The position numbers and the translations under genes were made by a program. Below the pieces are notes generated by a model, which was not told the DNA's origin, did not search any database, and worked only from the letters and a program-made list of their open reading frames with translations. This document shows, in pieces, positions 21,146 to 64,000 of a stretch of DNA of 64,000 nucleotides. How positions within the stretch are numbered: position 1 is the first letter of the stretch; each line of letters opens with the position of its first letter. The stretch comes from Coleofasciculus sp. B1-GNL1-01. GTDB lineage: Bacteria; Cyanobacteriota; Cyanobacteriia; Cyanobacteriales; Coleofasciculaceae. The stretch lies in NCBI GenBank assembly GCA_040220235.1, contig JAVJTO010000095.1; one strand, written 5' to 3'.

Positions 21146-21321
21146 AAACGATGAGAAAAAATACTTAGTTAACAGATGATGTTATTTTACTAAGCTTTGT
21201 AACATTTTTCTCATAAATATTTATCTTGGATCACTATAGGGTATCCCCGTAGAGGATGTAGACCACCGTTTTCATAGTTTTGGGGCGGGGAGAGAAAGAA
21301 TCTACATTGGGTAATCACAGC

Positions 21322-21898
21322 ATGTCCCACAACCACCATCACCATCACCATCACGACCACCACGCCTTCAACTACAATCGCGCTTTTGCCATTGGTCTGA
21401 TTCTCAATGGCGGGTTCGTCGTGGTTGAAGCGGCTTCGGGTATTGTCTACAATTCCCTAGCATTACTGGCGGATGCGGGTCACAATCTCAGTGATGTCTT
21501 GGGCTTGGTTCTGGCTTGGGGAGCGAGTATGTTGTCCCAACATTCTCCAACGAAGCGCTATACCTACGGCTTCCGTCGTTCCTCGATTTTGGCAGCTCTT
21601 TTAAATGCTACCCTGGTTCTCATGGCTATGGGTGTGGTGGCGTGGGAAGCGGTGAGAAAGTTCGTTAATCCTCAATCTGTACCCGGTGGTGTTGTGATTG
21701 GGGTTGCCTTGGTTGGGGTGGTGATTAATACCATTACCGCACTTTTGTTCATGTCAGGTCGTAAAGAGGATATGAACATTCGCGGTGCATTTCTGCACAT
21801 GGCGGCGGATGCGCTGGTTTCTGTGGGGGTAGTGCTGGCGGGTATTGCGATCGCGGTGACAGGGTGGCTATGGTTTGACCCGGCTGTCAGTTTAATTA
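21322..21898 (+). pseudogene. CDF-family (CzcD/ZitB-like) cation efflux transporter, 3'-truncated by IS
   Basis: His-rich N-terminus; ALLADAGHNLSD and GAFLHMAAD motifs; breaks in TM6 at the IS terminus; C-terminal domain absent. Confidence 0.88.
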
Positions 21899-23575
21899 GG
21901 GTCTGCTGAATAAGTCGGAAAAACACAACTGATGGATTAAGTAGTTATATAATACGACAGTAAATATGAGCATTTATTGTTAACAATTCGGCTAATGATA
22001 AGCTTTGATAATAAAATGACTCCGAAAAAGACCTGATTGTTTTTGAAACATAAAAAAAGACAAAAAACCTGCCTGAGCAGGGCAGACAGATTCATGACGA
22101 GAAAAGTAATAGCAATGGCTGTTTCTGAAGTATGAGGCAGTTTAGCCATGACGCGACTTAAACTGTATCCACGTTTTGAGATACCAAATTTTCCTTCAAT
22201 ATTATTGCGAATTCTCTCGTCTTCTTGAGCTTGTTTCTTTAATTCTTGACTGACATTGGCTTTTGGTCTTCCTAAGGGCGGTCTACTGATTCTAATTCCT
22301 TTTTCTTTGCAGAAGGAACCCGTTGGCTCGACTGCGATAGATTTTATCTACATGAACTGATTCTGGATAGGTTCCTGTGTAGTTATAATAAGCTTCTATT
22401 TGAGCTTTGAAATCTGCCGATTCATTAAAGTTATCCCAACTGACACGGTCTAAAAACACGTATCCATCTCTTACACTTGCCGATATTTTAGCTCCAAATT
22501 CTACGGGAACTCCCGCTTTGCCTCTAACTATTGGACGGATATGAGGTTGACTTAAACTTACTATTCTATGCTCAATTCTATGAACTTTATTATTATACAT
22601 CCATTCTTGCTGACGGTAGACTTCGCTAACCACCAACAGGCTCTTATAGTCAGTAAGAATCAACGCCTCAAGACTAGACCCTGCCTTGATTAGCTCGTCT
22701 ATACTTCCCAAGTTTCTCTTTATGTATTGTAGTTGTTTTTTTATGGCTTTTCTTATTTCTTTCCTTGTTTGTTTCTTTTTATTAGCTACTTTCAAGTATT
22801 CCTTTCTGGCTCGGTTTCTATAGCTTTTGGGTTTTTTCTCTATTTGACCCGGACGGGACTCATATAAACTGTCTATTATTTTTTCTGTTTTTATCCCAAT
22901 GATTTAATATCCCTAAATCATTGGGATAACTTATATCTCCTGGCACGCAACTTGCATCTAATATTAATTTCCCTTTATTCGCTGACCCGCTTTTTGAAAG
23001 CTTTTCTGTTTCTGGACTTTTTTTTTCGGCTCTGACTGACTCTCTGCCTGAGGATGAATCACCATTCTTTCGTTTATTCGGTTGACTAGATTCACATTTA
23101 TCCTTTCCCGAAATCTTGCTAATAGTGATGGGTCATAAGGGGCTGAGCTGCTGTAATGGGTTTTTCCGATAAAATACTGTAAGTAAGGGTTCTCTTTGAT
23201 TTGTTCGACTGTCTCTCGATCACTTATCCCTAGTTTCTCTTTGATTATTAATGACCCCAAGGCTACCCTAAATGGTAGGGCTGGCGCACCCAATAAGCGA
23301 GAGAAATTTTGGGCATATTCCTCTTCAAATTCCTCCCAGGGTACTAAAGAAGCCATGATTACCCAACGATTATCCTGTGATAACTTTCACGCCATAGGGA
23401 GTTCAAAATCTTCGGCTTCCCTGGGGGCATTCTCAACTTTTCGGTACATCTACCTGACCTGATCATGATGCAAGGATTTTGAGCGATATTACCAGATTCA
23501 GGAGCACCAAGTCAACTGTCAATACGGCTCAAAGCATTGATGGGCTTTGCGGTTTCGACCTTGTGCAGCAAACCC
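21899..23575 (-). mobile_element. IS5-family insertion sequence, degenerate
   Basis: Imperfect terminal IRs GGGTCTGCTGAATAAG (21899) and CTTGTGCAGCAAACCC (ends 23575), TA on both flanks; transposase pieces ENPYLQYFIG, RPIVRGKAGVPVEFGAK and SETAIAITFLVMNL. Confidence 0.9.
21937..23449 (-). pseudogene. IS5 transposase with an early TGA and several frameshifts
   Basis: Start MYRKVEN at 23449, in-frame TGA after 20 codons; remainder split into ORFs 22964-23356, 22292-22795 and 21937-22149. Confidence 0.85.
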
Positions 23576-50974: not shown

Positions 50975-51796
50975 TCAGTCGGTTTCCTTCTCCTCTTGCT
51001 TTTGCAGAGTTTCCGAGGCTTCTTGAACCTGCTTCAGATGAATCGTATTCACCTGATTAATGAAATTCTCGATTGCCTGTTTCAGCTTTTTCTTACGTTG
51101 GGATTCATCGGCTATATCATAGCAACGATACGCCTGAGTTACTCCCAATATGAATTTTTCTCGTTCTGCTTCTAACAGTTCAACTGCCGTATTTGCCGAA
51201 ATCCAATTTTCTTGAAAAGGAAATGACGTTACCACACTGGCAACAATAGAAGCGACCGCTGGAAAGATAACAGGTAACCACTTAAACCAAACCACACCAA
51301 TATCTAACTTATCAACCAAAACCAGAATTGGTGTAATCCCAGAAAAGACAATCGTTGCCATTTGGAATGTATAATAGATATTTCTCGAAGTCTGGCGACT
51401 TTGTTTATAGTCTTCAATCAGTTCTTGGCAATACTGCAAAGCATTTTCTCTGGCTACCGTTATGGGATTGTTACCCGGTTGTTGCTGTTCATCAACGAGA
51501 TATTGATAAATTTCCGCTCGTTTGGCAACATCAAGCTGAATTTGACGACTTGCTGCTTGAGCTAACTGTTTATCGAGCAAGACAAGGAAAACAAAAAATG
51601 AAACTAAAACAGCTATCCAGATAACGATACTTGCTTTATTGTCAACAACAAAGCTAATGATGCTTGTACCAATTAACGCCGCGAGGAACAGGTATTGTCC
51701 AATCTTGATCCAGGGAATCGGCATACTGGGTAAGAGTGAACCCTTTTCTCCTGCCTGAGACGGATCAGATGGATTAGTATTGTTGAGAGTGGTCAT
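50975..51796 (-). CDS. DUF4231/SLATT-like membrane protein with an extra N-terminal TM pair
   Basis: YY..Q..TIVFS.ITP, second TM, and FQENW...ELLE.E..KF pattern. Confidence 0.75.
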   Translation of the reverse strand: MTTLNNTNPSDPSQAGEKGSLLPSMPIPWIKIGQYLFLAALIGTSIISFVVDNKASIVIWIAVLVSFFVFLVLLDKQLAQAASRQIQLDVAKRAEIYQYLVDEQQQPGNNPITVARENALQYCQELIEDYKQSRQTSRNIYYTFQMATIVFSGITPILVLVDKLDIGVVWFKWLPVIFPAVASIVASVVTSFPFQENWISANTAVELLEAEREKFILGVTQAYRCYDIADESQRKKKLKQAIENFINQVNTIHLKQVQEASETLQKQEEKETD

Positions 51797-51912
51797 AATC
51801 TTGGAGTTGATGATTGTCCATCGTTTTAACTAGATATTATTTCACGCTGGAATCAACTCAGTCAACCCAAAAAACTTGTACTGCTATAAGTCCTCATCTC
51901 CTGCCAACAGCC

Positions 51913-54111
51913 ATGGCGAATCTATTAATTATCGAATCAGGCGGTAAGGTCAAAAAACTCAAATCCATTCTCGGTGCTGGCTGGACAGTTAAAGCCAGTA
52001 TGGGTCATGTGCGGGAATTAGCCGATGATGGGGATGATTCTCTGGGGTTTGATTTGGACGGTTCCCACATCCACTGTCGCTATGTTCCCCGGAGTAGTCA
52101 AGCCAAGAAAATCTTATCGGAATTGCGCGGTGCGATTCGCCAAGCTGACCGCATTTACCTGGGGACTGATCCCGATAGAGAAGGGGAAACGATTGGCTGG
52201 CATTTGACCCAGGCTTTGCGATTAAAGAATCCGTTACGAGTGACCTATACCGAGATTACCAAAGCCGCCGTCGATCGCGCGATCGCACATCCGAAATCCC
52301 TTGATTCTAATTTAGTCGCCGCCGGACGCGCCAGGGATTGTTTGGATAAGTTGGTGGGATATAAGGGGAGTCGATTAGTCTGGCGTTTGAATAACGGCTG
52401 CAAATCCATGGGACGGGTGCAGAGTGCAACACTGCATCTATTGGTGAAGCGAGAACAGGAGATTTTGGCATTTAAACCTCAGGATTATTGGGTCGTCTGG
52501 GTTGAGTATCAGGAGGGATTTAAGGCTGTTTACGCAGGTCGAACTTACCCGCAAACGACGCAACGGCGGAATTCGAGGGATAAAAATAAGACTCAACCTG
52601 ATGATGCAGGTGAGGAGACGCCAGTCTCGGAAGGGACACGGGTACTCTCTCAGGAAGACGCGGATCAACTCGTTGCGATCGCCCGATCTCATTCTCATCA
52701 TGTTGTCACAGTCGAAGGAAAAACGGTTAAACAATCTCCCCCCGCCGCCTTTACTACCTCTACGCTTCAGCAATCTGCTGGTGCAAAACTCAAGCTGAAT
52801 CCAGAAGTGACAATGAAAATTGCCCAAAGCCTCTATGAAGCGGGACATATTACCTATATGCGGACGGATTCGGTGGCGTTGTCTCCAGAGTTTTGTCAGG
52901 CGGCGAAACAGTGGCTTTTACAGCATGACCCGGATAATGTACCCGCTAGAGTAGCCGCCCATCGCTCGAAATCCGGGGCGCAAGAAGCCCATGAAGCGAT
53001 TCGTCCGACTCATGTTGAACGTATACCAGAACAATTATCGGTTCAACTGACTAGGGATGAGGCGAAGCTGTATGATTTAATTTGGAATCGCGCGATCGCC
53101 ACTCAATGCTGTCAAGCTCAATTGTCCAAAACTCGGATTGTCACCCAATCAGGGGATGTATTTTGGGAAGCCAGGGGACAGGTGTTAGTCGTACCTGGTT
53201 ATACTCGCTATTGGAATAATATCGCCGCCGATTCCCAATTACCACAAGTACAGCCAGGACAATTGCTGACCTTAGATAACGCAGGTGCGGATAAGAAACA
53301 AACCCAGCCACCCCCCCGCTACAGCGAACCCAAACTGGTGCAGGCGATGGAACGTTCCGGAATTGGTCGTCCTAGCACTTATGCGCCGACAATTAAGACT
53401 CTCAAAGCGCGTAACTATGTGCAGTTAAGTAAAGGGAAATTGCAGCCAACCCAATTGGGGATGGAACTGGATGCATTTTTGGCACAGGTGTTACCCGACC
53501 TAATTCAGCCAGAATTTACCGCTAAGATGGAATCGGATTTAGATGCGATCGCGTCAGGGAAGTTGGATTGGGAGTGCTATTTAACCGGGTGGAATCGAGA
53601 TTATTTTGCTCCGGCGCTCAACTCGGCATTTTCCCAAGTTCCAGAAATAGCCAGTCAAACTCAGTCTACCCCGAAGGGTGAATCGAAACGGCGTCCGAGA
53701 ACGGAACTCACGGATTATTCCTGTCCTAAATGTCAGCATCGGATGACTAAGGTATTTTCTACCTCTAAGAAGCTAAAAGCGGATCATTTCCTTAGTTGCG
53801 ATAATCGTGAGGGGGGATGTGGGGCGGTAATGTTTTGGAATGGGAAGGCTGGGGAGTATGAGTTACCGCGTTCGGAACGTCCTAAAGCCAAACCCACCAA
53901 GCCAGACAAACCAGCCAACTTAACGGAATATGCTTGTCCCAAGTGTGGCAAGCCGTTGGAGTTGTATGAATATGAGAAAGAGGGTCAAGCGAAGAAAATG
54001 CTGCGTTGTGCAAATCCCAAGTCTCGTCAGGGAAAATGTAAAACTGTGGCTTATTTTTGGACGAAAAAGGGGACGTTTTGGAGTCCCAAGTTTGGCGAGG
54101 TGAAAAAGTGA
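51913..54111 (+). CDS. topA: Type IA DNA topoisomerase with two C4 zinc ribbons (probably an accessory copy)
   Basis: TOPRIM IIES..K and DPDREGE; GRVQS; catalytic ITYMRTDS; GIGRPST; two C-terminal CPKC motifs. Confidence 0.9.
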   Translation: MANLLIIESGGKVKKLKSILGAGWTVKASMGHVRELADDGDDSLGFDLDGSHIHCRYVPRSSQAKKILSELRGAIRQADRIYLGTDPDREGETIGWHLTQALRLKNPLRVTYTEITKAAVDRAIAHPKSLDSNLVAAGRARDCLDKLVGYKGSRLVWRLNNGCKSMGRVQSATLHLLVKREQEILAFKPQDYWVVWVEYQEGFKAVYAGRTYPQTTQRRNSRDKNKTQPDDAGEETPVSEGTRVLSQEDADQLVAIARSHSHHVVTVEGKTVKQSPPAAFTTSTLQQSAGAKLKLNPEVTMKIAQSLYEAGHITYMRTDSVALSPEFCQAAKQWLLQHDPDNVPARVAAHRSKSGAQEAHEAIRPTHVERIPEQLSVQLTRDEAKLYDLIWNRAIATQCCQAQLSKTRIVTQSGDVFWEARGQVLVVPGYTRYWNNIAADSQLPQVQPGQLLTLDNAGADKKQTQPPPRYSEPKLVQAMERSGIGRPSTYAPTIKTLKARNYVQLSKGKLQPTQLGMELDAFLAQVLPDLIQPEFTAKMESDLDAIASGKLDWECYLTGWNRDYFAPALNSAFSQVPEIASQTQSTPKGESKRRPRTELTDYSCPKCQHRMTKVFSTSKKLKADHFLSCDNREGGCGAVMFWNGKAGEYELPRSERPKAKPTKPDKPANLTEYACPKCGKPLELYEYEKEGQAKKMLRCANPKSRQGKCKTVAYFWTKKGTFWSPKFGEVKK

Positions 54112-54253: not shown

Positions 54254-55021
54254 TTAAAGTGACATACCCCCGCCTCCAGTCATTACTGTTTCTCCAGTGG
54301 GCTGCGAGAATCTTTGTGATGGCTCGACAGTCACTACAATTGAAGAGTTACCTGACATGACATTATCTAACGGGATTTCTACGAATACTTTTCCTTGAGG
54401 GTCAGGCTTAAATTCACCACAGTAAATTTTTTTCCCGTCGGCAGTTGCCCACAATCGATAAATTTGTCCTTTGGGTAAGGGATCTAGATTTTGGAGTGTT
54501 AATACTGCCACCTCAGAGTTTGGTACAATCACCATACTTCCAGAGGCTTGAGGGATTGCATTCGTTCCTTTGAGGGATACCAAGCGGCTACTAGGCTGAC
54601 GAAGTAACGCGATCGCTTCCTTGTAGCGCGATAGTTCAGCACGAGCAGCAATTACCTCTTGATGTAAGCGATAGCTATATATACTGAGTCCAACTATAAC
54701 AGAAGCAGCAACACTTCCTGCAACACTAAGCCAAGCTTTTTGTCTTCTCCGAAGTCGGTTTGATACTCTTGCCGTTGAACTCGTATCGCTATCTCTAGCC
54801 ACTTGTAAAATCTGAGACCCTAAACTTGCAGGAGGCGAAGTTTCCGGTAAAGATAAAGGAAGTAATGCCAAAGTTTTCTGCAAGTGGCTCACTTCAGTAG
54901 CTAATTCTGGATTAGACTCCAATAACTGATTCACCGAAGCCACTTCTTCTGGAGTCAAATCACCAAGGACGTAGCTGGCTAAAAGTTCGTTTAAGTCTTC
55001 GGAGTCTCGAAAGTCTACCAT
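54254..55021 (-). CDS. Anti-sigma factor, RskA-like
   Basis: ELLASYVLGDL N-terminus, TM helix, YRLWA...VTVEP...PTG C-terminus; overlaps the sigma gene. Confidence 0.88.
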   Translation of the reverse strand: MVDFRDSEDLNELLASYVLGDLTPEEVASVNQLLESNPELATEVSHLQKTLALLPLSLPETSPPASLGSQILQVARDSDTSSTARVSNRLRRRQKAWLSVAGSVAASVIVGLSIYSYRLHQEVIAARAELSRYKEAIALLRQPSSRLVSLKGTNAIPQASGSMVIVPNSEVAVLTLQNLDPLPKGQIYRLWATADGKKIYCGEFKPDPQGKVFVEIPLDNVMSGNSSIVVTVEPSQRFSQPTGETVMTGGGGMSL

Positions 55022-55581
55022 CGCTGTTCTACCAAATCTTGTAATAGTTGTCTAAGCTTTAACAAGCCCTTGCGCTTGTAAGTTTTTACAGTTCCTATGG
55101 GCATATTCAAGCCTTGGGCAATTTCTGATTGACTTAAGCCGTCATAGTAAGCCATCTCCAGAACCTGCCGATGATGGGAAGGCAGTTCAGAGAGTGCCTC
55201 GCGGACGCGGCTCGACATTTCTTCTAAGGAAGCCTTATCCATCAACGTACTCCAACTTTCAGGCGGAAGGCTGCGAGTCCATCGTTGAAGACGCTGCCAC
55301 TGGGCTTGCATCTGACGATGGCGGTCAATTGCTTTTGAGCGGGTTAAAGTCAATAAAAAAACTAACATGGAACCTCGCTTCGAGTCATAAGTTCCTCTGT
55401 GTCTGAGGGCAAGAAATACTTCTTGGGTGAGGTCTTCAGCCTCTTGTGGATTGCCTAACATCCGCAAAGCGGTGCGGTAAACAACCTCTCCATAGCGCTC
55501 GTAAAGGATACCCAAGGCTAGCAGGTTCCCCGATCGCAACGCTTGAAATACCTCGGCATCCGTTTGGTGGGATAGCATCAT
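55015..55581 (-). CDS. ECF sigma-70 factor (SigK-like)
   Basis: AEDLTQEVF region 2; AYYDGLSQSEIA..L..P.GTVK region 4. Confidence 0.92.
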   Translation of the reverse strand: MMLSHQTDAEVFQALRSGNLLALGILYERYGEVVYRTALRMLGNPQEAEDLTQEVFLALRHRGTYDSKRGSMLVFLLTLTRSKAIDRHRQMQAQWQRLQRWTRSLPPESWSTLMDKASLEEMSSRVREALSELPSHHRQVLEMAYYDGLSQSEIAQGLNMPIGTVKTYKRKGLLKLRQLLQDLVEQRW

Positions 55582-55687
55582 TTAAAACCATTGGTCTTGA
55601 CATAAAAGCTAAAGCATGATGTTGATTTGTATCATCGACTGCCGTTTTTGCTCGATTCAAACCTATTGATCTGAGATTTATCAGTGA

Positions 55688-55714
55688 TACGAGGCTGACG
55701 CTCAAAAGGATTTA
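55688..55714 (-). promoter_or_regulatory. Putative ECF promoter A, upstream of the sigma gene
   Basis: Minus strand TAAATCC-TTTTGAGCGTCAGCCT-CGTA. Confidence 0.75.
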
Positions 55715-55935
55715 CTCAGGTTGAGTCGAAATTCAGTTTCTCCCTCAATGGCGCTCTTGATCGTCCTTGAGTTGTGTAATAGAGAGCTTAGTAAGATATG
55801 GCACGTCGAGATTGTTTCGTGACGGATGATGGACAGTATTTTGACTATTAAATTGAAAATTAGGGCGCACAAAAAGATTTTCATTCGCGAGAATTAAAGG
55901 CGCTCGTTAGGTCAGGCATCAGGCAAACGGGTCAG

Positions 55936-56166
55936 TCAGCGCTTCCTTGTACGACTGATATACTGACCGTGAATGTTAACAGCGTAAGGAACTAGGTAGG
56001 TCAAACTGCCGGAAATCCATCGTTCTCGATTCATCTGACCTTTGACTAGCGCTGACCCGTGATTAATTGCAAACAGAATAGAACCAACCACCACAGAAAC
56101 CTTGAGTGCTGTCGGCATCAAATCTTTATCGAAAAGACACAAACAAAATTCCCTTACAAGTTTCAT
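55936..56166 (-). CDS. NrtS-family small membrane protein
   Basis: TALKVSVVVGSIL.AINHG...LTYLVPY.V pattern. Confidence 0.75.
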   Translation of the reverse strand: MKLVREFCLCLFDKDLMPTALKVSVVVGSILFAINHGSALVKGQMNRERWISGSLTYLVPYAVNIHGQYISRTRKR

Positions 56167-56325
56167 CTCCCAACTCGATAACGATTACTTTCTTTCAAGC
56201 TACTTTGGGAGTGGGTTTTCAGTGGCTGGCTCTTGATTGCAGATGCGCCACTCGCTTCCCGCAGGTTAACGGAGAGAATTGACTCGCTGAAAAATCAAAA
56301 ATCTGCCATTTAAACGTACATCAGC

Positions 56326-56670
56326 TTAAACAGCCTTCAGAATTGCTTCTGAATACAACTTCTTTGGTTTTAATCCAGCAATCTGTTCTAAAACTGTTGT
56401 TCCTTTCAATAAAACAACAGTTGGAGCACTCCGCACACCCAATTCCATTGCCAAATCGGGTTCTTCCGTCATATCGATTGTGACCAGATGAATCTTACCA
56501 CTATGGTCAGTCACCAACTTTTCTAATACGGGCGCAAGAGTTTTGCAGGAAGGGCAGTGAGGAGCAACAAATTTAACGAAAATCGGTGTTTCAACGTCTT
56601 GCTGCAACTGTTGAAGAGCGTTTCGTCCTTGGTATCCAGCGCAAAAAATATTGTTCGTGGAATCTGACAT
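56326..56670 (-). CDS. Thioredoxin family protein (CPSC)
   Basis: APHCPSC active site and cis-Pro SAPT; likely ATG at 56670 after GGAG. Confidence 0.85.
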   Translation of the reverse strand: MSDSTNNIFCAGYQGRNALQQLQQDVETPIFVKFVAPHCPSCKTLAPVLEKLVTDHSGKIHLVTIDMTEEPDLAMELGVRSAPTVVLLKGTTVLEQIAGLKPKKLYSEAILKAV

Positions 56671-56767
56671 TTTTCTGTCTCCTAGTTGGTTGATAAATCG
56701 ATGCAACTGTTTGGCAGTTACCCCCGTGCCAGAGCCAATAATGACCCGATTTTCTACCCTCACTAAC

Positions 56768-57619
56768 TTAGCCGCCCAAAAACCATTGAGTGCCAGTAAA
56801 CAGGTAGTACGTTCCAGTTAAAATCAGAGCCACACTGCCAAAGTGAATAATTGCCTCGGAATGTTTCAATAACTGCTTGCTTTGTTTTGCTAGTCCGGTA
56901 AACAAACTCGCCAGGAAAATCAGCATGGTGTAACCCAAAGCGTAGCTAACCATCGTTAGTGTGCCTAAGAGTTGAGAGCCAGTAGCTGCCGCTGCTGCCA
57001 GCACCGCAAACAGCACTGGACTGGCACAGGGAGAACTCACCAAGGCAAAGGTCAACCCTACTCCATAAGGTCCCGCCTGGGGGAGATTCAAATCCATTTG
57101 TGGTAGGGGCAACGTAACTACCCCCATCAACCACAAACCCATCAGAGCCATAATCAGTCCCACGACTACATTGATATAGCCTCGGTACTCCACCATGACG
57201 GTTCCGGCAAAGGAGGAGACTAAGCCAAACAGACTTAAAATTGTTACAGCCCCCAAAACAAATAAGCCAGCCTTGGTCAAAGCATCCCAACGGGATTTAA
57301 TGTTCAACGTGCCGATATAACTGAGGTTGACGGGCAACAGCGCCAGAATGCATGGAGATACACTGGCAAGCAATCCACCAATAAATGCCAAGGGCAATAG
57401 CACTAGGGGATTGGCAGTATCTTGCTGGTCAAACCACTGCTGGTAGCGGTTTTCAACGAGGGATATCGCCCGTTCGATTGGGTGGCTGATGACAGGTCCT
57501 AGGGTGATAACCAACGCTAGGGAAAGCAATCCCAATCCTCCGTAAATCAACCATTGTTTTGAAACTTTAAAACGTCGAGAAGCCTTGTGATCAGATGATG
57601 ATCGAGGTATTTGTGCCAT
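56768..57619 (-). CDS. ccdA: CcdA/DsbD-type transmembrane disulfide reductant
   Basis: Paired SPCIL and SPCASP Cys motifs in a polytopic membrane protein. Confidence 0.88.
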   Translation of the reverse strand: MAQIPRSSSDHKASRRFKVSKQWLIYGGLGLLSLALVITLGPVISHPIERAISLVENRYQQWFDQQDTANPLVLLPLAFIGGLLASVSPCILALLPVNLSYIGTLNIKSRWDALTKAGLFVLGAVTILSLFGLVSSFAGTVMVEYRGYINVVVGLIMALMGLWLMGVVTLPLPQMDLNLPQAGPYGVGLTFALVSSPCASPVLFAVLAAAAATGSQLLGTLTMVSYALGYTMLIFLASLFTGLAKQSKQLLKHSEAIIHFGSVALILTGTYYLFTGTQWFLGG

Positions 57620-57638
57620 GAAATTGTCCTTACCTCAG

Positions 57639-58292
57639 CTAATTTTTGGCTAGAGCCGTGTCGAGAATCTGGGTGTAGTCATCCTGATTGGGATTATTTT
57701 TGAACATTGCTAAAATGTTGCCAGTCGCTGGGTCAACAATTGCCACGGTGCTAGTTTTACTCTTAGTATCTTCTAGGAATTTCCCCAAACCTAATTTTTC
57801 CGCCTTGGCTTGTGTTTCTTCGAGTGTGGCTTTATCCGTTACGTCTAGCACAACAAAGTTAACCCGATCACTATATTGCTGTTTCAATTGGGTCAGAGTG
57901 GGCGCAATATTCTTGCAGCCAGCACACCAGGTCGCAAACACATCCACTACCACGGGTTTACCCTGAAGTTCTGTAGCTAGGGGATTTCCTACAGATTGAG
58001 CTTTAGCAGCACATGGATTCTCTTTGGCAGCACAGGGATTGGCTTTAGAGGCGCAAGGATTCTCTTTAGCGGCACAAGGATTAGCTTTAGAAGCACAAGG
58101 ATTCTCTTTAGCGGCACAAGGATTAGCTTTAGAAGCACAGGGATTTTCTTTGGCAGCACAAGGATTAACTTGGTTGGTAGTACCCGTGTCTGGAGTGTTA
58201 GTCTTGGCGGCACAAGGGTTAGAGCAAGCAGCAACAAGTCCCAGACTCAGCATTGAAGCAACAGCAAGTGTAGCCAGATACTTAACTCTCAT
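57639..58292 (-). CDS. Thioredoxin-domain lipoprotein with NPCA(A/S)K Cys-rich repeats
   Basis: Signal peptide with lipobox LVAAC23; nine NPCA(A/S)K motifs; WCAGC thioredoxin fold; GAGGA RBS. Confidence 0.88.
   Translation of the reverse strand: MRVKYLATLAVASMLSLGLVAACSNPCAAKTNTPDTGTTNQVNPCAAKENPCASKANPCAAKENPCASKANPCAAKENPCASKANPCAAKENPCAAKAQSVGNPLATELQGKPVVVDVFATWCAGCKNIAPTLTQLKQQYSDRVNFVVLDVTDKATLEETQAKAEKLGLGKFLEDTKSKTSTVAIVDPATGNILAMFKNNPNQDDYTQILDTALAKN
57999..58166 (-). repeat. Eight 21-bp coding tandem repeats with 42-bp higher-order period
   Basis: Alternating NPCAAKE/NPCASKA units. Confidence 0.93.
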
Positions 58293-58328
58293 AGAATCCT
58301 CATCATGAGTACGACGGTTTATAGGGAA

Positions 58329-58355
58329 TACGAAGCTGAAGCCAAAAAGGATTTA
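58329..58355 (-). promoter_or_regulatory. Putative ECF promoter B, upstream of the Cys-repeat thioredoxin operon
   Basis: Minus strand TAAATCC-TTTTTGGCTTCAGCTT-CGTA. Confidence 0.78.
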
Positions 58356-58513
58356 GTGAATTTTTCTATGAAATGCAACCGAGCCTGCCAGATGCTGGGT
58401 AAAAAATGTTGTACATTGTACAAAATAAATCCTAAAGAAAAGCTGAAAAGCTTGATAGGGCTAGATTATCAGCTTGCGTTATCACCCCAAATACGAAAGA
58501 GCCATCTAGTTGG

Positions 58514-58540
58514 TAAATCCGTTTTGACTTCAGCTTCGTA
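58514..58540 (+). promoter_or_regulatory. Putative ECF promoter C, upstream of the glycosyltransferase operon
   Basis: TAAATCC-GTTTTGACTTCAGCTT-CGTA. Confidence 0.78.
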
Positions 58541-58651
58541 TCCTCTCATGAACACTCACATAAATGGTCTGCTCCTACTGCTATGGCTGCACGGCTAGAT
58601 GTGGTTCGAGCTGTGGTGGTGCTTTGATTTGAAGTAAGGAAATTTGGAAGA

Positions 58652-59500
58652 GTGACTTTAAAGGAAGCAGAAACTGAAAGAATTTCTATTATTATCCCGG
58701 TTCTCAATGAGGTGGGAACGATAAAAGAAGCGCTAGCCAGTACCTATTCCAGTACAAATGTAGAAGCGATCGCAGTCGATGGGGGTTCCACAGATGGTAC
58801 AGTTGGGCTAGTTCAGTCCTTGGGCGTGAAAGTTTTGTCAGCCCCTGCGGGTCGCGCTTGTCAAATGAATGCGGGTGCAATGGCAGCAACAGGCGAAATT
58901 CTGTTGTTTCTCCATGCCGATACTCGCTTACCCCCTGGGTTCGACACGATGGTTCGCACGGCGCTGCAACCATCAATGCCGGGAGGTAGAAAAGCTCCAG
59001 TTGCTGGTGCGTTTGCATTGCAGATTGACGCAGCACTGAGAAGGTTGTGGTTAATTGAATGGGGAGTAAATTGGCGATCGCGCTTTCTGCAAATGCCCTA
59101 TGGCGACCAAGCCATCTTTCTCAAAGCAAAAACATTTTACCAGATGGGTGGCTTCCCAGAGTTGCCGATTATGGAAGATTTTGAATTGATGCGTCGGTTA
59201 AAGCGCACTGGACGCATCGCACTTATCCCCACACCAGTTGTTACCTCAGCACGTCGATGGCTGAAAAAGGGAGTGCTTCAAACAACGCTCATTAACCAGA
59301 TGGTTATTTTAGCTTACTTACTAAACGTTTCACCCAAGCAACTGGTTCGTTGGTATCGCCATCAACCCAAACTAACGCCAAACCACTGGTTTAGGTCAAC
59401 CCCCGATCCTAAATCCGCTTCAATAACTCCTTTATCAACAGAGTTAGGAGAAGAGACAAAAAGTAGCAAAAGAGAGATAGTCCACCCCGATTGGGTATGA
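58652..59500 (+). CDS. GT2 glycosyltransferase, TIGR04283-like (rSAM/arsenosugar-associated)
   Basis: ISIIIPVLNE, VDGGS.D, GRA.QMN.GA, LFLHADT, PYGDQ, MEDF and TSARRW motifs. Confidence 0.85.
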   Translation: MTLKEAETERISIIIPVLNEVGTIKEALASTYSSTNVEAIAVDGGSTDGTVGLVQSLGVKVLSAPAGRACQMNAGAMAATGEILLFLHADTRLPPGFDTMVRTALQPSMPGGRKAPVAGAFALQIDAALRRLWLIEWGVNWRSRFLQMPYGDQAIFLKAKTFYQMGGFPELPIMEDFELMRRLKRTGRIALIPTPVVTSARRWLKKGVLQTTLINQMVILAYLLNVSPKQLVRWYRHQPKLTPNHWFRSTPDPKSASITPLSTELGEETKSSKREIVHPDWV

Positions 59501-59548
59501 GTTAATATCCAAAAAAAATTTCAGAGGAACCCAATAATCAATGAGAGG

Positions 59549-60709
59549 ATGTGTCGTTTAAATTCAATCGCAGACGGAGAAACCGAGGGTAGTCCAATGA
59601 CTCAAAGGAGCAAATGCCGCTTTAATTCTCAGCTAAAATTTATACTAATCAGTGGCTTAGTTTTCATCCTGATTGTGGCTGCCCAATCCTTCAACATTCG
59701 GCAACTTTTGCAAGCCTCATTACTTTGGGTTGAAAACCTTGGCATCTTAGCACCTGTTGTGTTTATCATCATCTATAACTTAGCAACGGTGCTATTTATA
59801 CCGGGTTCTCTCCTGACACTAAAAGGAGGTTGCTTATTTGGTGTGTTTTGGGGTTCAATTTATGTCACAATTGCGGCAACGTTGGGAGCTGTCTGTGCTT
59901 TCCTGATTGGACGCTATCTCTCTCGCGATTGGGTTTGCAGGAAGATTGAAAGTAATCCTAAATTCAAAGCGATTAATCAAGCGGTGAAGCAAGAAGGATG
60001 GAAAATTGTCCTGCTGACTCGCCTTTCTCCTATATTCCCGTTCAACCTGCTCAACTACGCCTTTGGTGTTACTCAAGTTTCACTCAGAGATTATATTTTG
60101 GGTTCTATTGGTATGATTCCTGCTACGGTGGTGTATGTTTACATTGGTTCCCTAGCTACTGATTTAGCCACACTCAATCTGTCCAATCAACCCTCCACAA
60201 AAGAAACTCAAATCGCCCACCATCTAATTCGAGGCATTGGATTAATTGCTACAGTTGCCGTCACTGTTTATATAACCCACCTTGCCAAAAAAGCTTTAGA
60301 CGAAAACATTGAAGGGAACAAAAAATTTCGGGCAATTGACGAAGCGGTGGGCAGAGAAGGACTCAAAATTGTTCTATTAACGCGACTTTCTCCCATATTT
60401 CCCTTCAATTTATTGAACTACGCCTATGGCATTACGGGAGTCTCTCTCAAAGACTACGTTATCGGTTCTGTGGGTATGATTCCCGGAACAATTATGTATG
60501 TTTACATCGGTTCTTTAGCGGGTAGTCTAGCCACAATTGGTACTGAAGCTCAACCCGCAAACCCCACGGTGCAATGGGCGATTCGGATTATTGGTTTTAT
60601 CGCCACCGTTGCTGTCACGCTTTATGTAACCAAAGTCGCACGTAAGGCTTTAGAAGAGGAAGTTTTAGATCATGAAGACAATCAAACTAAGCCCATCAAT
60701 CCGAATTAG
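59549..60709 (+). CDS. TVP38/TMEM64 (DedA/VTT) family protein, 1.5-copy fusion
   Basis: LLTRLSPIFPFNLLNYA occurs twice. Confidence 0.85.
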   Translation: MCRLNSIADGETEGSPMTQRSKCRFNSQLKFILISGLVFILIVAAQSFNIRQLLQASLLWVENLGILAPVVFIIIYNLATVLFIPGSLLTLKGGCLFGVFWGSIYVTIAATLGAVCAFLIGRYLSRDWVCRKIESNPKFKAINQAVKQEGWKIVLLTRLSPIFPFNLLNYAFGVTQVSLRDYILGSIGMIPATVVYVYIGSLATDLATLNLSNQPSTKETQIAHHLIRGIGLIATVAVTVYITHLAKKALDENIEGNKKFRAIDEAVGREGLKIVLLTRLSPIFPFNLLNYAYGITGVSLKDYVIGSVGMIPGTIMYVYIGSLAGSLATIGTEAQPANPTVQWAIRIIGFIATVAVTLYVTKVARKALEEEVLDHEDNQTKPINPN

Positions 60710-60848
60710 CCAATACGCCAAGTCAGATCTTGAATCTGAATGATGGAGTCATCAATATGTTAGACATCTATGATCAGAATAATCACAACAATGGATAAAA
60801 AATCCAATCAGCTGACTCCTTAATCCTATTTGAAAAACAGAGGTAAGT

Positions 60849-61385
60849 ATGATGACAACTGGAACAATGACAGCTAAATTAATGACTGGAACTCAAGTTT
60901 CCGAACTTGAAGTAAAAACCCTGGATGGCAAGCTTTGGAAACTTTCCGAGCAGAAACCCAAAAACTTGACCATGGTTGTTTTTTACCGAGGTGTGTTTTG
61001 CCCAATTTGTCACTCCTATCTGGCGGAAATAGACCGACTGTTGGGTGATTTTAAGCAACTTGGTGTTGAAGTCATTGCCCTGAGTGGAGATAGTCAAGAA
61101 GCCGCTCAACAATCTAAAGATGAGTGGGGTATTCAAAATCTCACGATAGGCTATGAAGCTAGTCTTGAACTAATGCGTTGTTGGGGACTTTACATTTCAA
61201 AAGGTGCTTTTGAAAATGAACCTCCTCTATTTTGTGAACCCGGTCTATTTCTAGTTAAACCTGATGGCATACTTTTCTATGCTGCCGTGAATAGTGGACC
61301 CTTTGGTCGTCCACCTATATCCGAAATGCTATCGTCAATCGACTTTGTTCTGAAAAAGAATTACCCCATACGAGGAACCGAATAA
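60849..61385 (+). CDS. Peroxiredoxin-like AhpC/TSA family protein
   Basis: FYRG.FCPIC, EPGLFLV.PDG, PFGRP and YP.RG motifs. Confidence 0.87.
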   Translation: MMTTGTMTAKLMTGTQVSELEVKTLDGKLWKLSEQKPKNLTMVVFYRGVFCPICHSYLAEIDRLLGDFKQLGVEVIALSGDSQEAAQQSKDEWGIQNLTIGYEASLELMRCWGLYISKGAFENEPPLFCEPGLFLVKPDGILFYAAVNSGPFGRPPISEMLSSIDFVLKKNYPIRGTE

Positions 61386-61428
61386 ATTAATCTATTTCAG
61401 CAATTATTAGTTTTTGAAGGAGTCAATA

Positions 61429-62976
61429 ATGTCAAATTCAGCCTTTCAAAGAGTCAATGTCCTACCGATGGATGACTATAACAAAAAACTGGTGTCTTAT
61501 GTTCATCCACCTGATTGGGTTAATCCTCAACCTGCCGATTGTTATGACTTAGTTGTGATTGGTGCGGGTACGGCGGGATTAGTGGTAGCAGCAGGTGCAG
61601 CGGGTTTAGATGTCGGTTTAAAAGTCGCCTTAGTTGAAAAACATCTCATGGGCGGAGATTGTTTGAATGTCGGTTGTGTTCCTTCTAAGTGCATTATTCG
61701 CTCCTCTCGTGTCATTGCTGAGATGAAAGAGGCTGGAGTTTTTGGCATTCATCCGCCAGAAAACATAGAGGTGAATTTTTCGGCAGTCATGGAACGGATG
61801 CGGAAGCTTCGAGCGGGAATTAGCCATCACGATTCTGTTCAACGTTTCCAAAAAATTGGCATTGATGTTTTCTTAGGAGAAGGTCATTTTTTACGGAATA
61901 ACCGGATCGAAGTTGGCGATAAGATTCTACGATATAAAAAAGCTGTTATTGCGACGGGAGCGAGAGCGGTGCGTCCCTCAATTCAAGGGATTGAAGAAGC
62001 GGGATTTTTAACAAATGAAACAGTTTTTTCACTGACTCAACGTCCCAAACGCCTTGCTGTCATTGGTGGTGGACCCATCGGTTGTGAATTAGCTCAAGCG
62101 TTTCATCGGTTGGGTTCTAAGGTAATTCTTTTCCATCGAGGCTCTCATCTGTTGAATAAAGAAGATGCTGATGCCGCAGAAATTGTTCAAAATGTCTTGA
62201 TTCAAGAAGGGATTCAGTTGGTGCTGAGTTCACAAACTGAGCGCGTGGTTAAAACGGCTGAAGGTAAAACGCTTTATTACACCTCTGGCAACGGCGCAAA
62301 ACAGTCAGTTACGGTTGATGAAATTTTAGTGGGTGCGGGACGTGCGCCGAATGTTGAAGGTCTAAATTTAGACGCAGTTGGGGTAGACTATGATCGCAAA
62401 GGGGTGAAGGTGAATGATTACCTGCAAACGACGAATCCAAAAATTTATGCGGCTGGCGACATCTGCATGAAATGGAAGTTTACCCATGCCGCCGATGCTG
62501 CTGCACGGATTGTAATTAAGAATACTCTGTTTTCTCCGTTTGGCTTGGGACGTTCCAAACTCAGCAGCTTAGTCATGCCTTGGGTAACCTATACTGACCC
62601 AGAAATTGCTCATGTGGGGATGTACGAACATGAGGCTCAGGAAACGGGAATAGAGGTCAATACAATTAAGATTCCATTTAGTAGTGTAGACCGTGCGATC
62701 GCAGATGGTGAAGAGGATGGGTTTGTTAAGATTCACTACAAGAAAGGTTCCGACCAAATTTTAGGAGCAACGATTGTCGCTCGTCATGCGGGGGAGATGA
62801 TTAGCGAAGTGACGACGGCAATTGTTAATAAAATCGGTTTGAATGGGTTATCGGGTGTGATTCATCCCTATCCGACTCAAGCTGAAGGTATCAAGAAAGC
62901 AGCGGATGCTTATCGCCGCACCTTGTTAACACCAACCTCGAAGAAAATATTGGGATTGCTCACCAAATTGTATTAA
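61429..62976 (+). CDS. MerA-like FAD-dependent pyridine nucleotide-disulfide oxidoreductase
   Basis: GAGTAG, GGDCLNVGCVPSK, GGGPIG and HPYPT motifs; AAGGAG RBS before ATG at 61429; no C-terminal Cys-Cys. Confidence 0.9.
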   Translation: MSNSAFQRVNVLPMDDYNKKLVSYVHPPDWVNPQPADCYDLVVIGAGTAGLVVAAGAAGLDVGLKVALVEKHLMGGDCLNVGCVPSKCIIRSSRVIAEMKEAGVFGIHPPENIEVNFSAVMERMRKLRAGISHHDSVQRFQKIGIDVFLGEGHFLRNNRIEVGDKILRYKKAVIATGARAVRPSIQGIEEAGFLTNETVFSLTQRPKRLAVIGGGPIGCELAQAFHRLGSKVILFHRGSHLLNKEDADAAEIVQNVLIQEGIQLVLSSQTERVVKTAEGKTLYYTSGNGAKQSVTVDEILVGAGRAPNVEGLNLDAVGVDYDRKGVKVNDYLQTTNPKIYAAGDICMKWKFTHAADAAARIVIKNTLFSPFGLGRSKLSSLVMPWVTYTDPEIAHVGMYEHEAQETGIEVNTIKIPFSSVDRAIADGEEDGFVKIHYKKGSDQILGATIVARHAGEMISEVTTAIVNKIGLNGLSGVIHPYPTQAEGIKKAADAYRRTLLTPTSKKILGLLTKLY

Positions 62977-63050
62977 CGCTTCTTAGCTAATTTTGATAAT
63001 TATGAAAGCGAAGTTTCACAGTTTAGATGTAAGGAGTTGAAAGCAGTCTG

Positions 63051-63452
63051 ATGAATAGCGATCGCCGAATCCCAGTTGCATTGCTCTTGCTGCGACTGAG
63101 TGTGTTTCTGGTCATGCTGATGTGGACTTTAGATAAATTTGTGAACCCTGACCATGCCGCAGCAATTTTCCAGAATTTTTATTTGATTGGTGGATTGAGT
63201 AATATGCCAATTTACCTCATTGGGGGGATTCAGCTTATCATTATTCTGGGATTTGTAACAGGTTTCCAAAAGCGGTGGACTTATTTGCTAGTGCTATTTT
63301 TCCATTCTGTTTCCACCTTTTCATCTTTTCGGCAATATTTCGCTCCCTTTGAAAACTTGCTATTTTTCGCAGCTTGGCCCATGCTGGCGGCTTGCTTTGC
63401 CCTTTATTATCTCAGAGATTTAGACATCATCTGGACAGTTGATAAAAATTAA
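63051..63452 (+). CDS. DoxX-like 4-TM membrane protein
   Basis: LLLRLSVFLVMLMW.LDKF.NP and LLFFAAWPML motifs. Confidence 0.75.
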   Translation: MNSDRRIPVALLLLRLSVFLVMLMWTLDKFVNPDHAAAIFQNFYLIGGLSNMPIYLIGGIQLIIILGFVTGFQKRWTYLLVLFFHSVSTFSSFRQYFAPFENLLFFAAWPMLAACFALYYLRDLDIIWTVDKN

Positions 63453-63746
63453 TTATCTAAATTTAGGATATTAATAATTACAATTTCTTACATTTTCAAC
63501 TCTTGTGAAACAAGAGTCGTCTGGTGTTGAACCCATTAACTGAATTTATCTCTAATAATTTACATCATTTGCGATCGCTATTATGTTTACGCCTCTCATC
63601 CACTCGTCATTGAGGGAGAATCTGTTTACTTTACGATTCACCTTGGGGAATCGCGTATTAGCCTCTGTCCCCGAAGAGACTTAACGACGAGTTGAGGAGC
63701 ATCTTTCCAATTACTCAGATATCCTAATCCAACCTAGGATCTAGAG

Positions 63747-63773
63747 TAAATCCTTTTTGGTTTTAGCTTCGTA
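63747..63773 (+). promoter_or_regulatory. Putative ECF promoter D
   Basis: TAAATCC-TTTTTGGTTTTAGCTT-CGTA. Confidence 0.72.
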
Positions 63774-63859
63774 TCTCTGTATAGAACTCCCAAATGGATG
63801 ATCTAATACCCAGCCTTTCACTTTTTTTTACAATGTCGCCATCCTAACCCACCTGCTGA

Positions 63860-64000
63860 TAAGCTGTTCGGCATTTAAATAGGGTATAATCAAAATAGAA
63901 AATCCGAAAAACGAAAAAATATGCCAGCCAAAAATTATTTAAAACCAGAGCAGAAAGAAAAATTACAAATTGCCCTAAAAACCGAGAATAACGCAGATAT
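63860..64000 (+). mobile_element. Left end of a probable IS630-family element; transposase begins at 63921 (partial)
   Basis: TA-anchored end TAAGCTGTTCGGCATTTAAATAGGGTATA; ORF MPAKNYLKPEQKEKLQIALK runs off the window. Confidence 0.6.

What the first reader, a model, noticed from the sequence alone, without database searches (positions are those of the whole stretch)
54254..63773. Candidate self-contained ECF-sigma regulon: envelope thiol-redox/metal(loid) island
Seen: a SigK-like ECF sigma and RskA-like anti-sigma; a leftward operon (Cys-repeat thioredoxin lipoprotein, CcdA, thioredoxin, NrtS-like); a rightward operon (GT2, DedA, peroxiredoxin-like, MerA-like disulfide reductase, DoxX); one shared promoter-like motif in front of each unit. 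Established: M. tuberculosis SigK-RskA controls dipZ, a CcdA+thioredoxin fusion; TIGR04283-type GTs, DedA and MerA-like reductases co-occur with rSAM/arsenosugar loci. Inference: an electron relay NAD(P)H -> flavin reductase -> Trx -> CcdA -> surface Cys-rich lipoprotein, induced by envelope redox or metal(loid) stress. I know of no description of this combination in cyanobacteria.
Basis: partly seen in the sequence, partly recalled or inferred. Interest (0 to 1): 0.85.

Follow-up and report, generated by a model that had tools for sequence, protein, structure and literature searches.

The report
Eroded ECF arsenosugar–thiol regulon island
A cyanobacterial stress sigma factor sits in a small island with four copies of what is very probably its own promoter, placed before thiol-repair genes and the remains of an arsenic-sugar operon, which suggests a way of switching on arsenic-sugar genes that has been shown only by computation.

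Summary
All 11 genes are present. TAAATCC-N11-AGCYTCGTAT occurs four times in the island and nowhere else in the 8.66 Mb genome. A matrix trained on other cyanobacterial families ranks these four sites top. The motif fits the ECF18/19 promoter and precedes related sigma genes (50 of 92 loci), so a small autoregulated regulon is likely.

The reading needs two corrections. First, the island is an eroded copy. It keeps an arsS 3' stub before the glycosyltransferase, a trxR 5' stub before the thioredoxin and two fused dedA genes, and an IS630 follows promoter 4. Intact relatives carry promoter-arsM-arsS-GT-dedA-dedA-reductase and lipoprotein-ccdA-trxR-trx. Second, thioredoxin was therefore fed by TrxR, not by the MerA-like enzyme, which lacks MerA's C-terminal cysteines.

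The sigma subclade is linked to arsM (6 of 11 versus 0 of 41). arsM carries the site only in genomes holding that sigma. The inducing signal is unknown and expression is not shown. I found no paper on this control. This scan noted the same system before on other DNA. New variant of a known kind.

The parts
54254..55021 (-). RskA-type anti-sigma factor, one predicted membrane helix (residues 96-114), a single Cys
   Evidence: PF10099 78.8 bits; NF052375 above cut-off; hydropathy
55015..55581 (-). ECF sigma factor (PRK12519 subfamily; ECF19/SigK-like), no cysteines
55687..55714 (-). P1: predicted ECF promoter, 106 nt before the sigma ATG (autoregulation)
   Evidence: same site class upstream of related sigmas
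55936..56166 (-). NrtS-family small membrane protein, last gene of the leftward operon
   Evidence: NF038050 112.8 vs cut-off 25
56326..56670 (-). Cytoplasmic thioredoxin (CPSC); true start ATG 56670
56728..56760 (-). 5' stub of a deleted thioredoxin reductase (trxR) gene, start codon lost
   Evidence: 58 of 73 nt identical to the ccdA-trxR junction of L025; L025 TrxR passes TIGR01292
56768..57619 (-). CcdA/DsbD-type membrane electron transporter, both SPC cysteines present (C90, C198)
57639..58292 (-). Lipoprotein: lipobox, nine NPC[A/S]xK repeats, C-terminal thioredoxin domain (CAGC)
58328..58355 (-). P2: predicted ECF promoter, 36 nt before the lipoprotein ATG
58514..58541 (+). P3: predicted ECF promoter of the rightward operon
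58574..58632 (+). 3' stub of arsS (arsenosugar radical SAM enzyme); arsM and almost all of arsS are deleted
   Evidence: 94 of 100 nt identical to the arsS end and GT start of L195; matches the arsS ends of many other loci
58652..59500 (+). TIGR04283 arsenosugar-biosynthesis glycosyltransferase (whole model covered); lacks the DUF2064 remnant present in L195
59549..60709 (+). DedA/VTT protein: in-frame fusion of dedA1 with the C-terminal half of dedA2 (junction about 60305-60322)
   Evidence: two VTT stretches; blastn against the two separate genes in L173
60849..61385 (+). AhpC-TSA-fold CxxC redoxin (CPIC); below all named peroxiredoxin cut-offs
61429..62976 (+). PRK06370-type flavin disulfide oxidoreductase ('MerA-like'); active-site Cys pair present, no C-terminal Cys pair
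63051..63452 (+). DoxX-like membrane protein
   Evidence: weak PF07681; 77% orthologue inside the arsM-arsS operon of L156
63747..63774 (+). P4: predicted ECF promoter with no visible target
63854..64000 (+). Left end of an IS630-like element (family from the look of the ORF, not scanned); the contig ends inside it
   Evidence: 97% identical to copies on C40 and C112

Best explanation
The island is an accessory, partly deleted copy of a cyanobacterial ECF19 (SigK/SigI-like) regulon that joins an envelope thiol-reducing arm to the arsenosugar gene set. Model: the single-pass RskA holds the sigma until an envelope signal releases it (inferred; most likely thiol-oxidising or thiol-binding stress). 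The sigma then reads A[A/C]ATCC-N16-CGTAT promoters. P1 amplifies the pair. P2 makes Trx, CcdA and the lipoprotein: electrons pass NADPH -> TrxR -> Trx -> CcdA -> the lipoprotein's thioredoxin domain, which keeps its nine repeat cysteines reduced as a renewable thiol or metalloid-binding sink. TrxR is lost here and must come from elsewhere, probably the trxR on contig C65. P3 makes the later arsenosugar-cluster proteins (GT, DedA, redoxin, PRK06370 reductase, DoxX); in intact relatives it also makes ArsM and ArsS. Shown from sequence: genes, motif, stubs, synteny and sigma-motif co-occurrence. Inferred: promoter function, release mechanism, electron path, role of the repeats, and the signal. 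Odds for the signal if the regulon is real: about 50% general thiol/oxidant stress, 30% arsenic or phosphate status, 20% other.
For: Motif: 4 of 4 exact genomic copies lie in the island, and an independent matrix ranks them top. A looser form lies within 300 nt upstream of the sigma in 50 of 92 related loci, against 0.11 expected from shuffles. It matches the published ECF18 (TGCATCTT/CGTA) and ECF19 (ATC/CG) patterns. Synteny: site -> arsM-arsS-GT-dedA-dedA-reductase in L195 and L192, with similar sets in L019, L024, L156, L159, L161; lipoprotein-ccdA-trxR-trx-dedA-reductase in L025 and L232. Linkage within 11 kb in a 251-genome sample: arsM 6 of 11 and reductase 7 of 10 for sigmas at least 63% identical, versus 0 of 41 and 1 of 52 for more distant sigmas. 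arsM upstream sites: 2 of 30 top-scoring arsM loci, both in genomes with the subclade sigma, and 0 of 26 in genomes without it. Sites also occur at arsM genes unlinked to the sigma (G407 37 bits, G077 17 bits). Stubs.
Against: No expression or start-site data; the one RNA run was uninformative. Of the 11 subclade genomes, 4 (G000, G002, G218, G445) have no site before arsM, and this genome's own arsM and arsS lie in an ordinary ars cluster without it. L025, L026 and the lipoprotein operon of L232 have no site. Kin are not independent, and the 63% cut was set after seeing the identity gap. G445's sigma falls in the sister clade and its arsM link may be chance. The sigma lacks SigK's redox cysteines. 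The reductase, GT, DedA and CcdA all have paralogues elsewhere in the genome.
Confidence: 0.7

Rival explanations
1. Oxyanion-uptake and arsenolipid regulon: the sigma responds to arsenate or phosphate status and co-induces an oxyanion importer with ArsM/ArsS/GT/DedA to build arsenosugar (phospho)lipids. The thiol arm mainly supplies reductant to ArsM and guards against As(III).
For: Phosphate-type transporters lie downstream of the site in several lineages: ArsR-pstSCAB in L232, arsM-arsS-pstSCAB in L157 and L159, PiT-dedA-reductase in L018, arsM-PiT in L166. ArsS uses the methylarsenite made by ArsM and adenosylates DMAs(III).
Against: No transporter, arsM or arsS remains in this copy. Sister sigma clades drive Trx-CcdA alone or MsrPQ-like, MsrB and Met-rich-peptide genes from the same promoter class, which points to oxidative repair as the family's theme. 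Synechocystis arsM was not induced by arsenic, though regulation there may differ. That Trx reduces ArsM is recalled; the one paper searched did not mention it.
Confidence: 0.2
2. Decaying passenger: the island is redundant in this strain, is being deleted piecemeal, and no longer gives a coordinated response.
For: Four separate lesions (arsM-arsS, trxR, dedA fusion, IS630 after P4). G449 has lost 54349-62532 at the same site next to topA, and G583, G486, G585 and G537 show no island match beyond topA in the fetched stretches. Paralogues exist elsewhere.
Against: Sigma, anti-sigma, ccdA, lipoprotein, GT and reductase frames are intact with catalytic residues, the dedA deletion is in frame, and all four sites stay near consensus. 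Low-depth contigs identical to parts of the anti-sigma and lipoprotein start were seen in one RNA library, but they may be DNA.
Confidence: 0.15
3. One reading: the MerA-like flavoprotein is the NAD(P)H-dependent reductase of the island's Trx and feeds CcdA.
For: It is the only flavin reductase left in the island, has the redox-active Cys pair and shares the promoter motif.
Against: A true TrxR sits in the ancestral operon beside this Trx, together with the MerA-like gene (L025, L232). The MerA-like gene's constant neighbour is dedA (27 of 30 loci), not trx. It occurs in 142 of 251 genomes above cut-off, mostly without this sigma.
Confidence: 0.1
4. Mercury-resistance island built on a mercuric reductase.
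For: A Synechocystis MerA-like enzyme reduces Hg(II) and uranyl (cited in PMC8261052) and is Hg-induced through a MerR regulator (PMC6741143). The best PDB matches are mercuric reductases.
Against: No C-terminal Cys pair, which PMC8261052 lists as essential. TIGR02053 404.6 is below the cut-off of 454.45. No mer genes lie in the island. Whether the Synechocystis enzyme is an orthologue was not tested.
Confidence: 0.04

Closest known systems
Mycobacterium tuberculosis SigK-RskA (ECF19) and the mpb83-dipZ-mpb70 regulon
   Same: Sigma followed by a single-pass RskA_C anti-sigma; small regulon containing dipZ (that DipZ is a CcdA-thioredoxin fusion is recalled); ATC / CG promoter pattern.
   Different: No sigma-4 disulfide cysteines; no MPT70/83 fasciclin; targets include an NPCxxK lipoprotein and arsenosugar genes.
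Synechocystis PCC 6803 SigI (Sll0687) / Sll0688 with Sll0686
   Same: ECF sigma whose downstream gene product binds it; adjacent 'cytochrome c-type biogenesis' gene, co-induced under ethanol; ECF19s9 has such a gene at -2. Trx-ccdA-sigma-rskA operons with 51-64% identical sigmas form the sister clade in my tree.
   Different: SigI's promoter and function were unknown in the 2009 review. The sister-clade loci mostly lack the site upstream of the sigma, the Cys repeats and the arsenosugar genes. Orthology to Sll0687 itself was not tested against its sequence.
Cyanobacterial arsM-arsS arsenosugar genes and the NCBIfam arsenosugar set (NF038099, TIGR04167, TIGR04283)
   Same: TIGR04283 GT above cut-off; arsS stub; intact relatives carry NF038099 and TIGR04167 above cut-off.
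   Different: Under a predicted ECF promoter and joined to a thiol-export arm; this copy cannot make ArsM or ArsS.
Azospira suillum SigF-NrsF / MrpX / YedY
   Same: ECF/anti-sigma pair controlling an exported low-complexity, oxidisable peptide and its re-reducing system. Distant relatives of this sigma sit beside Met-rich repeat peptides, MsrP/Q-like genes and MsrB.
   Different: A different ECF and anti-sigma family; cysteine repeats fused to a thioredoxin with CcdA, rather than methionines with MsrP.
Mercuric reductase MerA
   Same: Class I flavin disulfide reductase fold and active-site Cys pair.
   Different: No C-terminal vicinal Cys pair, below the MerA cut-off, no mer operon.

Membership tests
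ECF19 / SigK-type sigma | sigma2 + sigma4 only, SigK-like sequence | tested here: met
   (PRK12519 above cut-off; SigK model PRK09646 118.6, below its 226 cut-off)
ECF19 / SigK-type sigma | RskA-like anti-sigma with one membrane helix at +1 | tested here: met
ECF19 / SigK-type sigma | ATC (-35) and CG (-10) promoter pattern upstream of its own gene | tested here: met
   P1
ECF19 / SigK-type sigma | Assignment by the ECF group HMMs (ECF18 vs ECF19, subgroup s9) | not testable with these tools
   group HMMs not available; the motif also resembles ECF18's
SigK proper (redox-sensing subgroups) | C133/C183 disulfide in sigma4 | tested here: not met
   no Cys in the protein; the supplement says this is not defining for ECF19 as a whole
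Cyanobacterial SigI type | Orthology to Sll0687/All2193 | tested here: inconclusive
   matching gene order in the sister clade; no direct comparison with the named proteins
Arsenosugar biosynthesis cluster | ArsM (NF038099) and ArsS (TIGR04167) present | tested here: not met
   only an arsS 3' stub in the island; both genes lie on contig C21
Arsenosugar biosynthesis cluster | TIGR04283 glycosyltransferase | tested here: met
   259.5 vs 182, model 1-221 of 221
Arsenosugar biosynthesis cluster | Arsenosugar production depends on these genes | not testable with these tools
   needs As speciation of mutants
MerA mercuric reductase | Active-site Cys pair | tested here: met
   C78/C83
MerA mercuric reductase | C-terminal vicinal Cys pair; TIGR02053 cut-off | tested here: not met
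CcdA/DsbD-TM | Two PC-motif catalytic cysteines in a DsbD_TM domain | tested here: met
Peroxiredoxin (named subfamilies) | Score above a curated peroxiredoxin cut-off | tested here: not met
   best SelL-related redoxin 41.7 vs 120; AhpC 25.2 vs 272
MrpX-type sacrificial scavenger (works-like) | Residues oxidised by stress and re-reduced by a co-regulated enzyme | not testable with these tools
   repeat conserved in 120 of 120 listed homologues (2-11 copies), lipobox-like motif in 115; chemistry untested, and the repeat itself drives the ranking

The most novel reading that the evidence does not exclude
One cyanobacterial ECF subclade has taken over arsenosugar synthesis. It switches on oxyanion import, ArsM/ArsS, the GT-DedA-reductase set and a surface Cys-repeat lipoprotein together, so arsenosugars are a regulated envelope product made on an extracytoplasmic cue rather than a by-product of detoxification. 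The co-regulated genes (TIGR04283 GT, DedA pair, PRK06370 reductase, redoxin, DoxX) would then be the missing late steps, and the NPCxxK lipoprotein a CcdA-recharged thiol or As(III) sink.
Probability: 0.3. Interest if true: 0.8.

Novelty: new variant of a known kind. Interest (0 to 1): 0.5.

Why it matters
It gives a concrete, strongly supported promoter and target list for a SigI/SigK-type cyanobacterial sigma whose promoter and function were described as unknown (2009 review). It ties arsM-arsS, which arsenic did not induce in Synechocystis, to an anti-sigma switch that can be flipped by one deletion. That makes two open questions testable: what turns arsenosugar synthesis on, and which genes finish it. 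This particular copy is eroded, so intact relatives (L195, L024, L019, L156, L161) are the better experimental models. Its value is as a natural deletion series.

Tried and rejected
Motif searches with a 13-nt spacer found nothing; I had miscounted. A strict pattern over 401 phylum genomes hit 8, too narrow for distant relatives. The idea that the motif is a general arsM promoter was rejected: 1 of 30 by regex, 2 of 30 by matrix. No motif was found in the 1.5 kb before 30 PRK06370 genes, but that stretch mostly holds dedA, so the test is weak. The target of P4 was not found: the IS copies end at contig ends, and known regulon genes (TPR protein, PiT, L024 secreted protein) have no close copy in the genome. 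RNA: one metatranscriptome held 12% of the words; its contigs are low-depth or come from paralogues and other organisms, so no conclusion. The tree is the quick IQ-TREE version because the careful run did not finish; the 20-row clade has SH-aLRT 94, unstarred. A literature search for the NPCAAK repeat returned 273 papers; none of the 20 listed held that term. One literature search timed out. I ran no structure or complex prediction, since a pass for sigma/anti-sigma or CcdA/Trx would be expected by likeness to solved pairs. Mercury resistance and 'MerA feeds Trx' were considered and ranked low.


Full report
OBSERVATION. The ORF list and family scans confirm all genes in 54254-63452 (see parts). 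The closest named relatives of the sigma are Coleofasciculus records at 95-97%. Reading the intergenic DNA gave TAAATCC-N11-AGCYTCGTAT. It occurs at 55687-55714 (-), 58328-58355 (-), 58514-58541 (+) and 63747-63774 (+), with 0.02 expected by shuffling. These are the only exact copies in the 8,664,607-base genome. Because that pattern came from the sites themselves, I built a matrix from 20 sites in 9 loci of other cyanobacterial families. It scores the four sites 40.2, 39.4, 37.3 and 31.0 bits; the next site in the genome scores 18.0.

IS IT THE SIGMA'S PROMOTER? The general form [A/C]ATCC-N16-CGTA lies within 300 nt upstream of the sigma in 13 of 20 close and 37 of 72 distant loci with at least 250 nt of upstream DNA, against 0.11 expected in total from mononucleotide shuffles (1 of 93 loci dropped for short flank; many loci are kin). 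The ECF classification supplement gives TGCATCTT/CGTA for ECF18 and ATC/CG for ECF19, notes a cytochrome c biogenesis gene at -2 of ECF19s9, and says ECF19 includes cyanobacterial members (PMC7826278; main-text passages, supplement search, supplement part 8 of 36; the stored file is cut, so its tables may say more about ECF19s9). Promoter function is thus a strong inference, not a measurement. The sigma has no cysteine, so the SigK disulfide switch (PMC7509140, passages) is absent.

THE ISLAND IS AN ERODED COPY. (a) Window 58574-58673 is 94 of 100 nt identical to the end of arsS and the start of the GT in L195; the last codons of arsS survive 33 nt after P3. (b) The ccdA-trx gap matches the ccdA-trxR junction of L025 at 58 of 73 nt, and L025's gene is a TrxR above cut-off. 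(c) The 386-aa DedA is dedA1 fused in frame to the second half of dedA2. (d) An IS begins at 63854, 80 nt after P4, and the contig ends in it. Intact forms: L195 has site-arsM-arsS-GT-dedA-dedA-reductase, site-lipoprotein-ccdA-trx-nrtS and site-sigma-rskA; L192 has the first of these. L024, L019, L156, L159 and L161 carry similar sets. L025 and L232 hold lipoprotein, lipoprotein, ccdA, trxR, trx, dedA, reductase in one run, and L237 places lipoprotein-ccdA-arsS beside reductase-arsM-dedA without a site. So the two arms belong to one gene set. Among 8 congeners, the listed matches show sigma-region DNA in G584 and G586 (221 matches not listed). G449 has the island deleted from 54349 to 62532 at the same position after topA; G583, G486, G585 and G537 show no island match beyond topA. 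This genome has separate copies of dedA plus reductase (C72), ccdA (C105), GT (C39), trxR-trx (C65), and arsM and arsS (C21, inside an ars cluster); none has the site.

HOW GENERAL? In one sample of 251 genomes of the order, arsM was found in 117, the PRK06370 reductase above cut-off in 142 and a related sigma at E <= 1e-40 in 87. Eleven genomes have a sigma at least 63% identical, then identity drops to 58%. Counting genomes with both genes listed, arsM lies within 11 kb of the sigma in 6 of 11 versus 0 of 41, and the reductase in 7 of 10 versus 1 of 52. Draft assemblies can hide links, kin are not independent, and I chose the cut after seeing the gap. G445 counts among the six although its sigma groups with the sister clade and its arsM has no site. 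With a matrix trained on 19 sites not in front of arsM, 2 of the 30 top arsM loci have a strong site. Both are in subclade genomes (2 of 4), and none of the other 26 has one. Over the 11 subclade genomes, arsM has a site in G011, G407, G531 and G563, a weak one in G077, a 17-nt-spacer one in G418 and an operon-start one in G113; it has none in G000, G002, G218 and G445. G407 and G077 carry the site at an arsM far from the sigma, which argues for control in trans over local duplication. A quick tree puts the window's sigma in a 20-row clade (SH-aLRT 94) holding 11 of the 14 rows I labelled arsenosugar-module. Its sister holds the plain Trx-ccdA-sigma-rskA operons, and a separate clade holds 15 of the 16 MsrPQ-linked sigmas, which use the same promoter class.

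MECHANISM. My best reading (0.7): an envelope cue frees the sigma from RskA (regulated proteolysis is described for SigK; inferred here). P1 amplifies the pair, P2 makes the thiol-export arm and P3 makes the late arsenosugar-cluster proteins. CcdA has both catalytic cysteines. The lipoprotein has a lipobox, nine NPC[A/S]xK repeats and a CAGC thioredoxin domain. All 120 listed homologues, of 1167 found, carry 2-11 repeats, and 115 have a lipobox-like motif (the repeat biases that ranking). Electron transfer from Trx through CcdA to an exported thioredoxin is established knowledge for the DsbD/CcdA family (recalled). That the repeats are the substrate and act as a sink is inference by analogy with MrpX (PMC4436054, passages). 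The reductant of Trx is TrxR by ancestry. The MerA-like enzyme travels with dedA (27 of 30 loci) and lacks the C-terminal Cys pair required of MerA (PMC8261052, passages). Its substrate is unknown; reduction of an organoarsenical or a small thiol is my guess. The main rival (0.2) is an arsenate/phosphate-cued uptake and arsenolipid programme, because Pst or PiT transporters lie downstream of the site in L018, L157, L159, L166 and L232.

WHAT IS KNOWN. SigK controls mpb83-dipZ-mpb70 (PMC10540498, passages). In Synechocystis, SigI binds the product of its downstream gene (PMC2779905, passage), and sll0686 and sll0687 rise together under ethanol (PMC3564720, table passage). SigI's function and promoter were unclear in 2009 (PMC2758279, passages). 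arsM and arsS are co-transcribed and make arsenosugar precursors (bioRxiv 2022.09.23.509062, passages; PMC13598754, passages), and arsM was not arsenic-induced (PMC4010505, passages). The Synechocystis MerA-like gene is MerR-controlled (PMC6741143, passages). Xue 2017/2019, Marteyn 2013 and Veyrier 2008 were seen only as citations. Seven searches of the open library (listings only) showed no paper on ECF control of arsenosugar genes, on this promoter or on the repeat lipoprotein. TIGR04283 had no occurrence in the 20 papers listed. Subscription journals, where much arsenosugar work appears, and bioRxiv supplements were not visible. Earlier AI notes of this scan describe the same system in another cyanobacterium (e1-2394859, e1-2394860) and ECF-linked arsenosugar clusters in other phyla. 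I saw them after my own synteny and stub results and do not count them as support.

VERDICT. The feature is real and is a new variant of a known kind: an ECF19/SigK-like pair with a CcdA-thioredoxin core that has gained arsenosugar genes and a Cys-repeat lipoprotein, seen here in a partly deleted state. Interest 0.5; 0.8 if the regulon proves to be the switch and the late steps of arsenosugar synthesis.

Noticed in passing
G000 contig C75:4354-5502: A stand-alone 97-aa ORF encoding a lipoprotein made almost only of NPC[A/G]xK repeats, divergent from a cupin-like gene of the family often found beside these sigmas; no promoter site.
   Followed up: partly
window 50975-54111: A SLATT-domain gene and a second type I topoisomerase flank the island; the SLATT gene is absent or broken at this spot in several congeners. 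The site after topA looks like a variable insertion point.
   Followed up: partly
L047:5826-11334 and related Microcoleus loci: Distant sigmas with the same promoter class sit with MsrP/MsrQ-like genes, MsrB, a ResA-like thioredoxin, a different CcdA and a Met-rich repeat lipoprotein: a methionine counterpart of the cysteine system.
   Followed up: partly
L232:830-4652 (G059): A strong site precedes an ArsR-pstSCAB-like operon next to a 44%-identical sigma pair and the full lipoprotein-to-reductase operon.
   Followed up: partly
L024:5991-6557, L156:3478-4038, L161:9598-10143: A conserved secreted-looking protein of about 185 aa with no Pfam or NCBIfam hit (L024 copy scanned) lies directly after a site in three genomes.
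   Followed up: no
L017:2337-9711: ArsR, phosphate-selective porin, PhnD-like binding protein, kinase-like and radical SAM genes and a rhodanese are inserted between nrtS and the sigma.
   Followed up: no
G000 contig C21:43134-53703: ars cluster with arsR, a PstS-like gene, gap, an ArsJ-like MFS, Acr3 and two ArsC-like genes between arsM and arsS (labels from the look of the sequences, not scanned).
   Followed up: partly
window 21280-23356: A cation-diffusion-facilitator-like ORF appears cut short next to transposase fragments (from the ORF list, not scanned).
   Followed up: no
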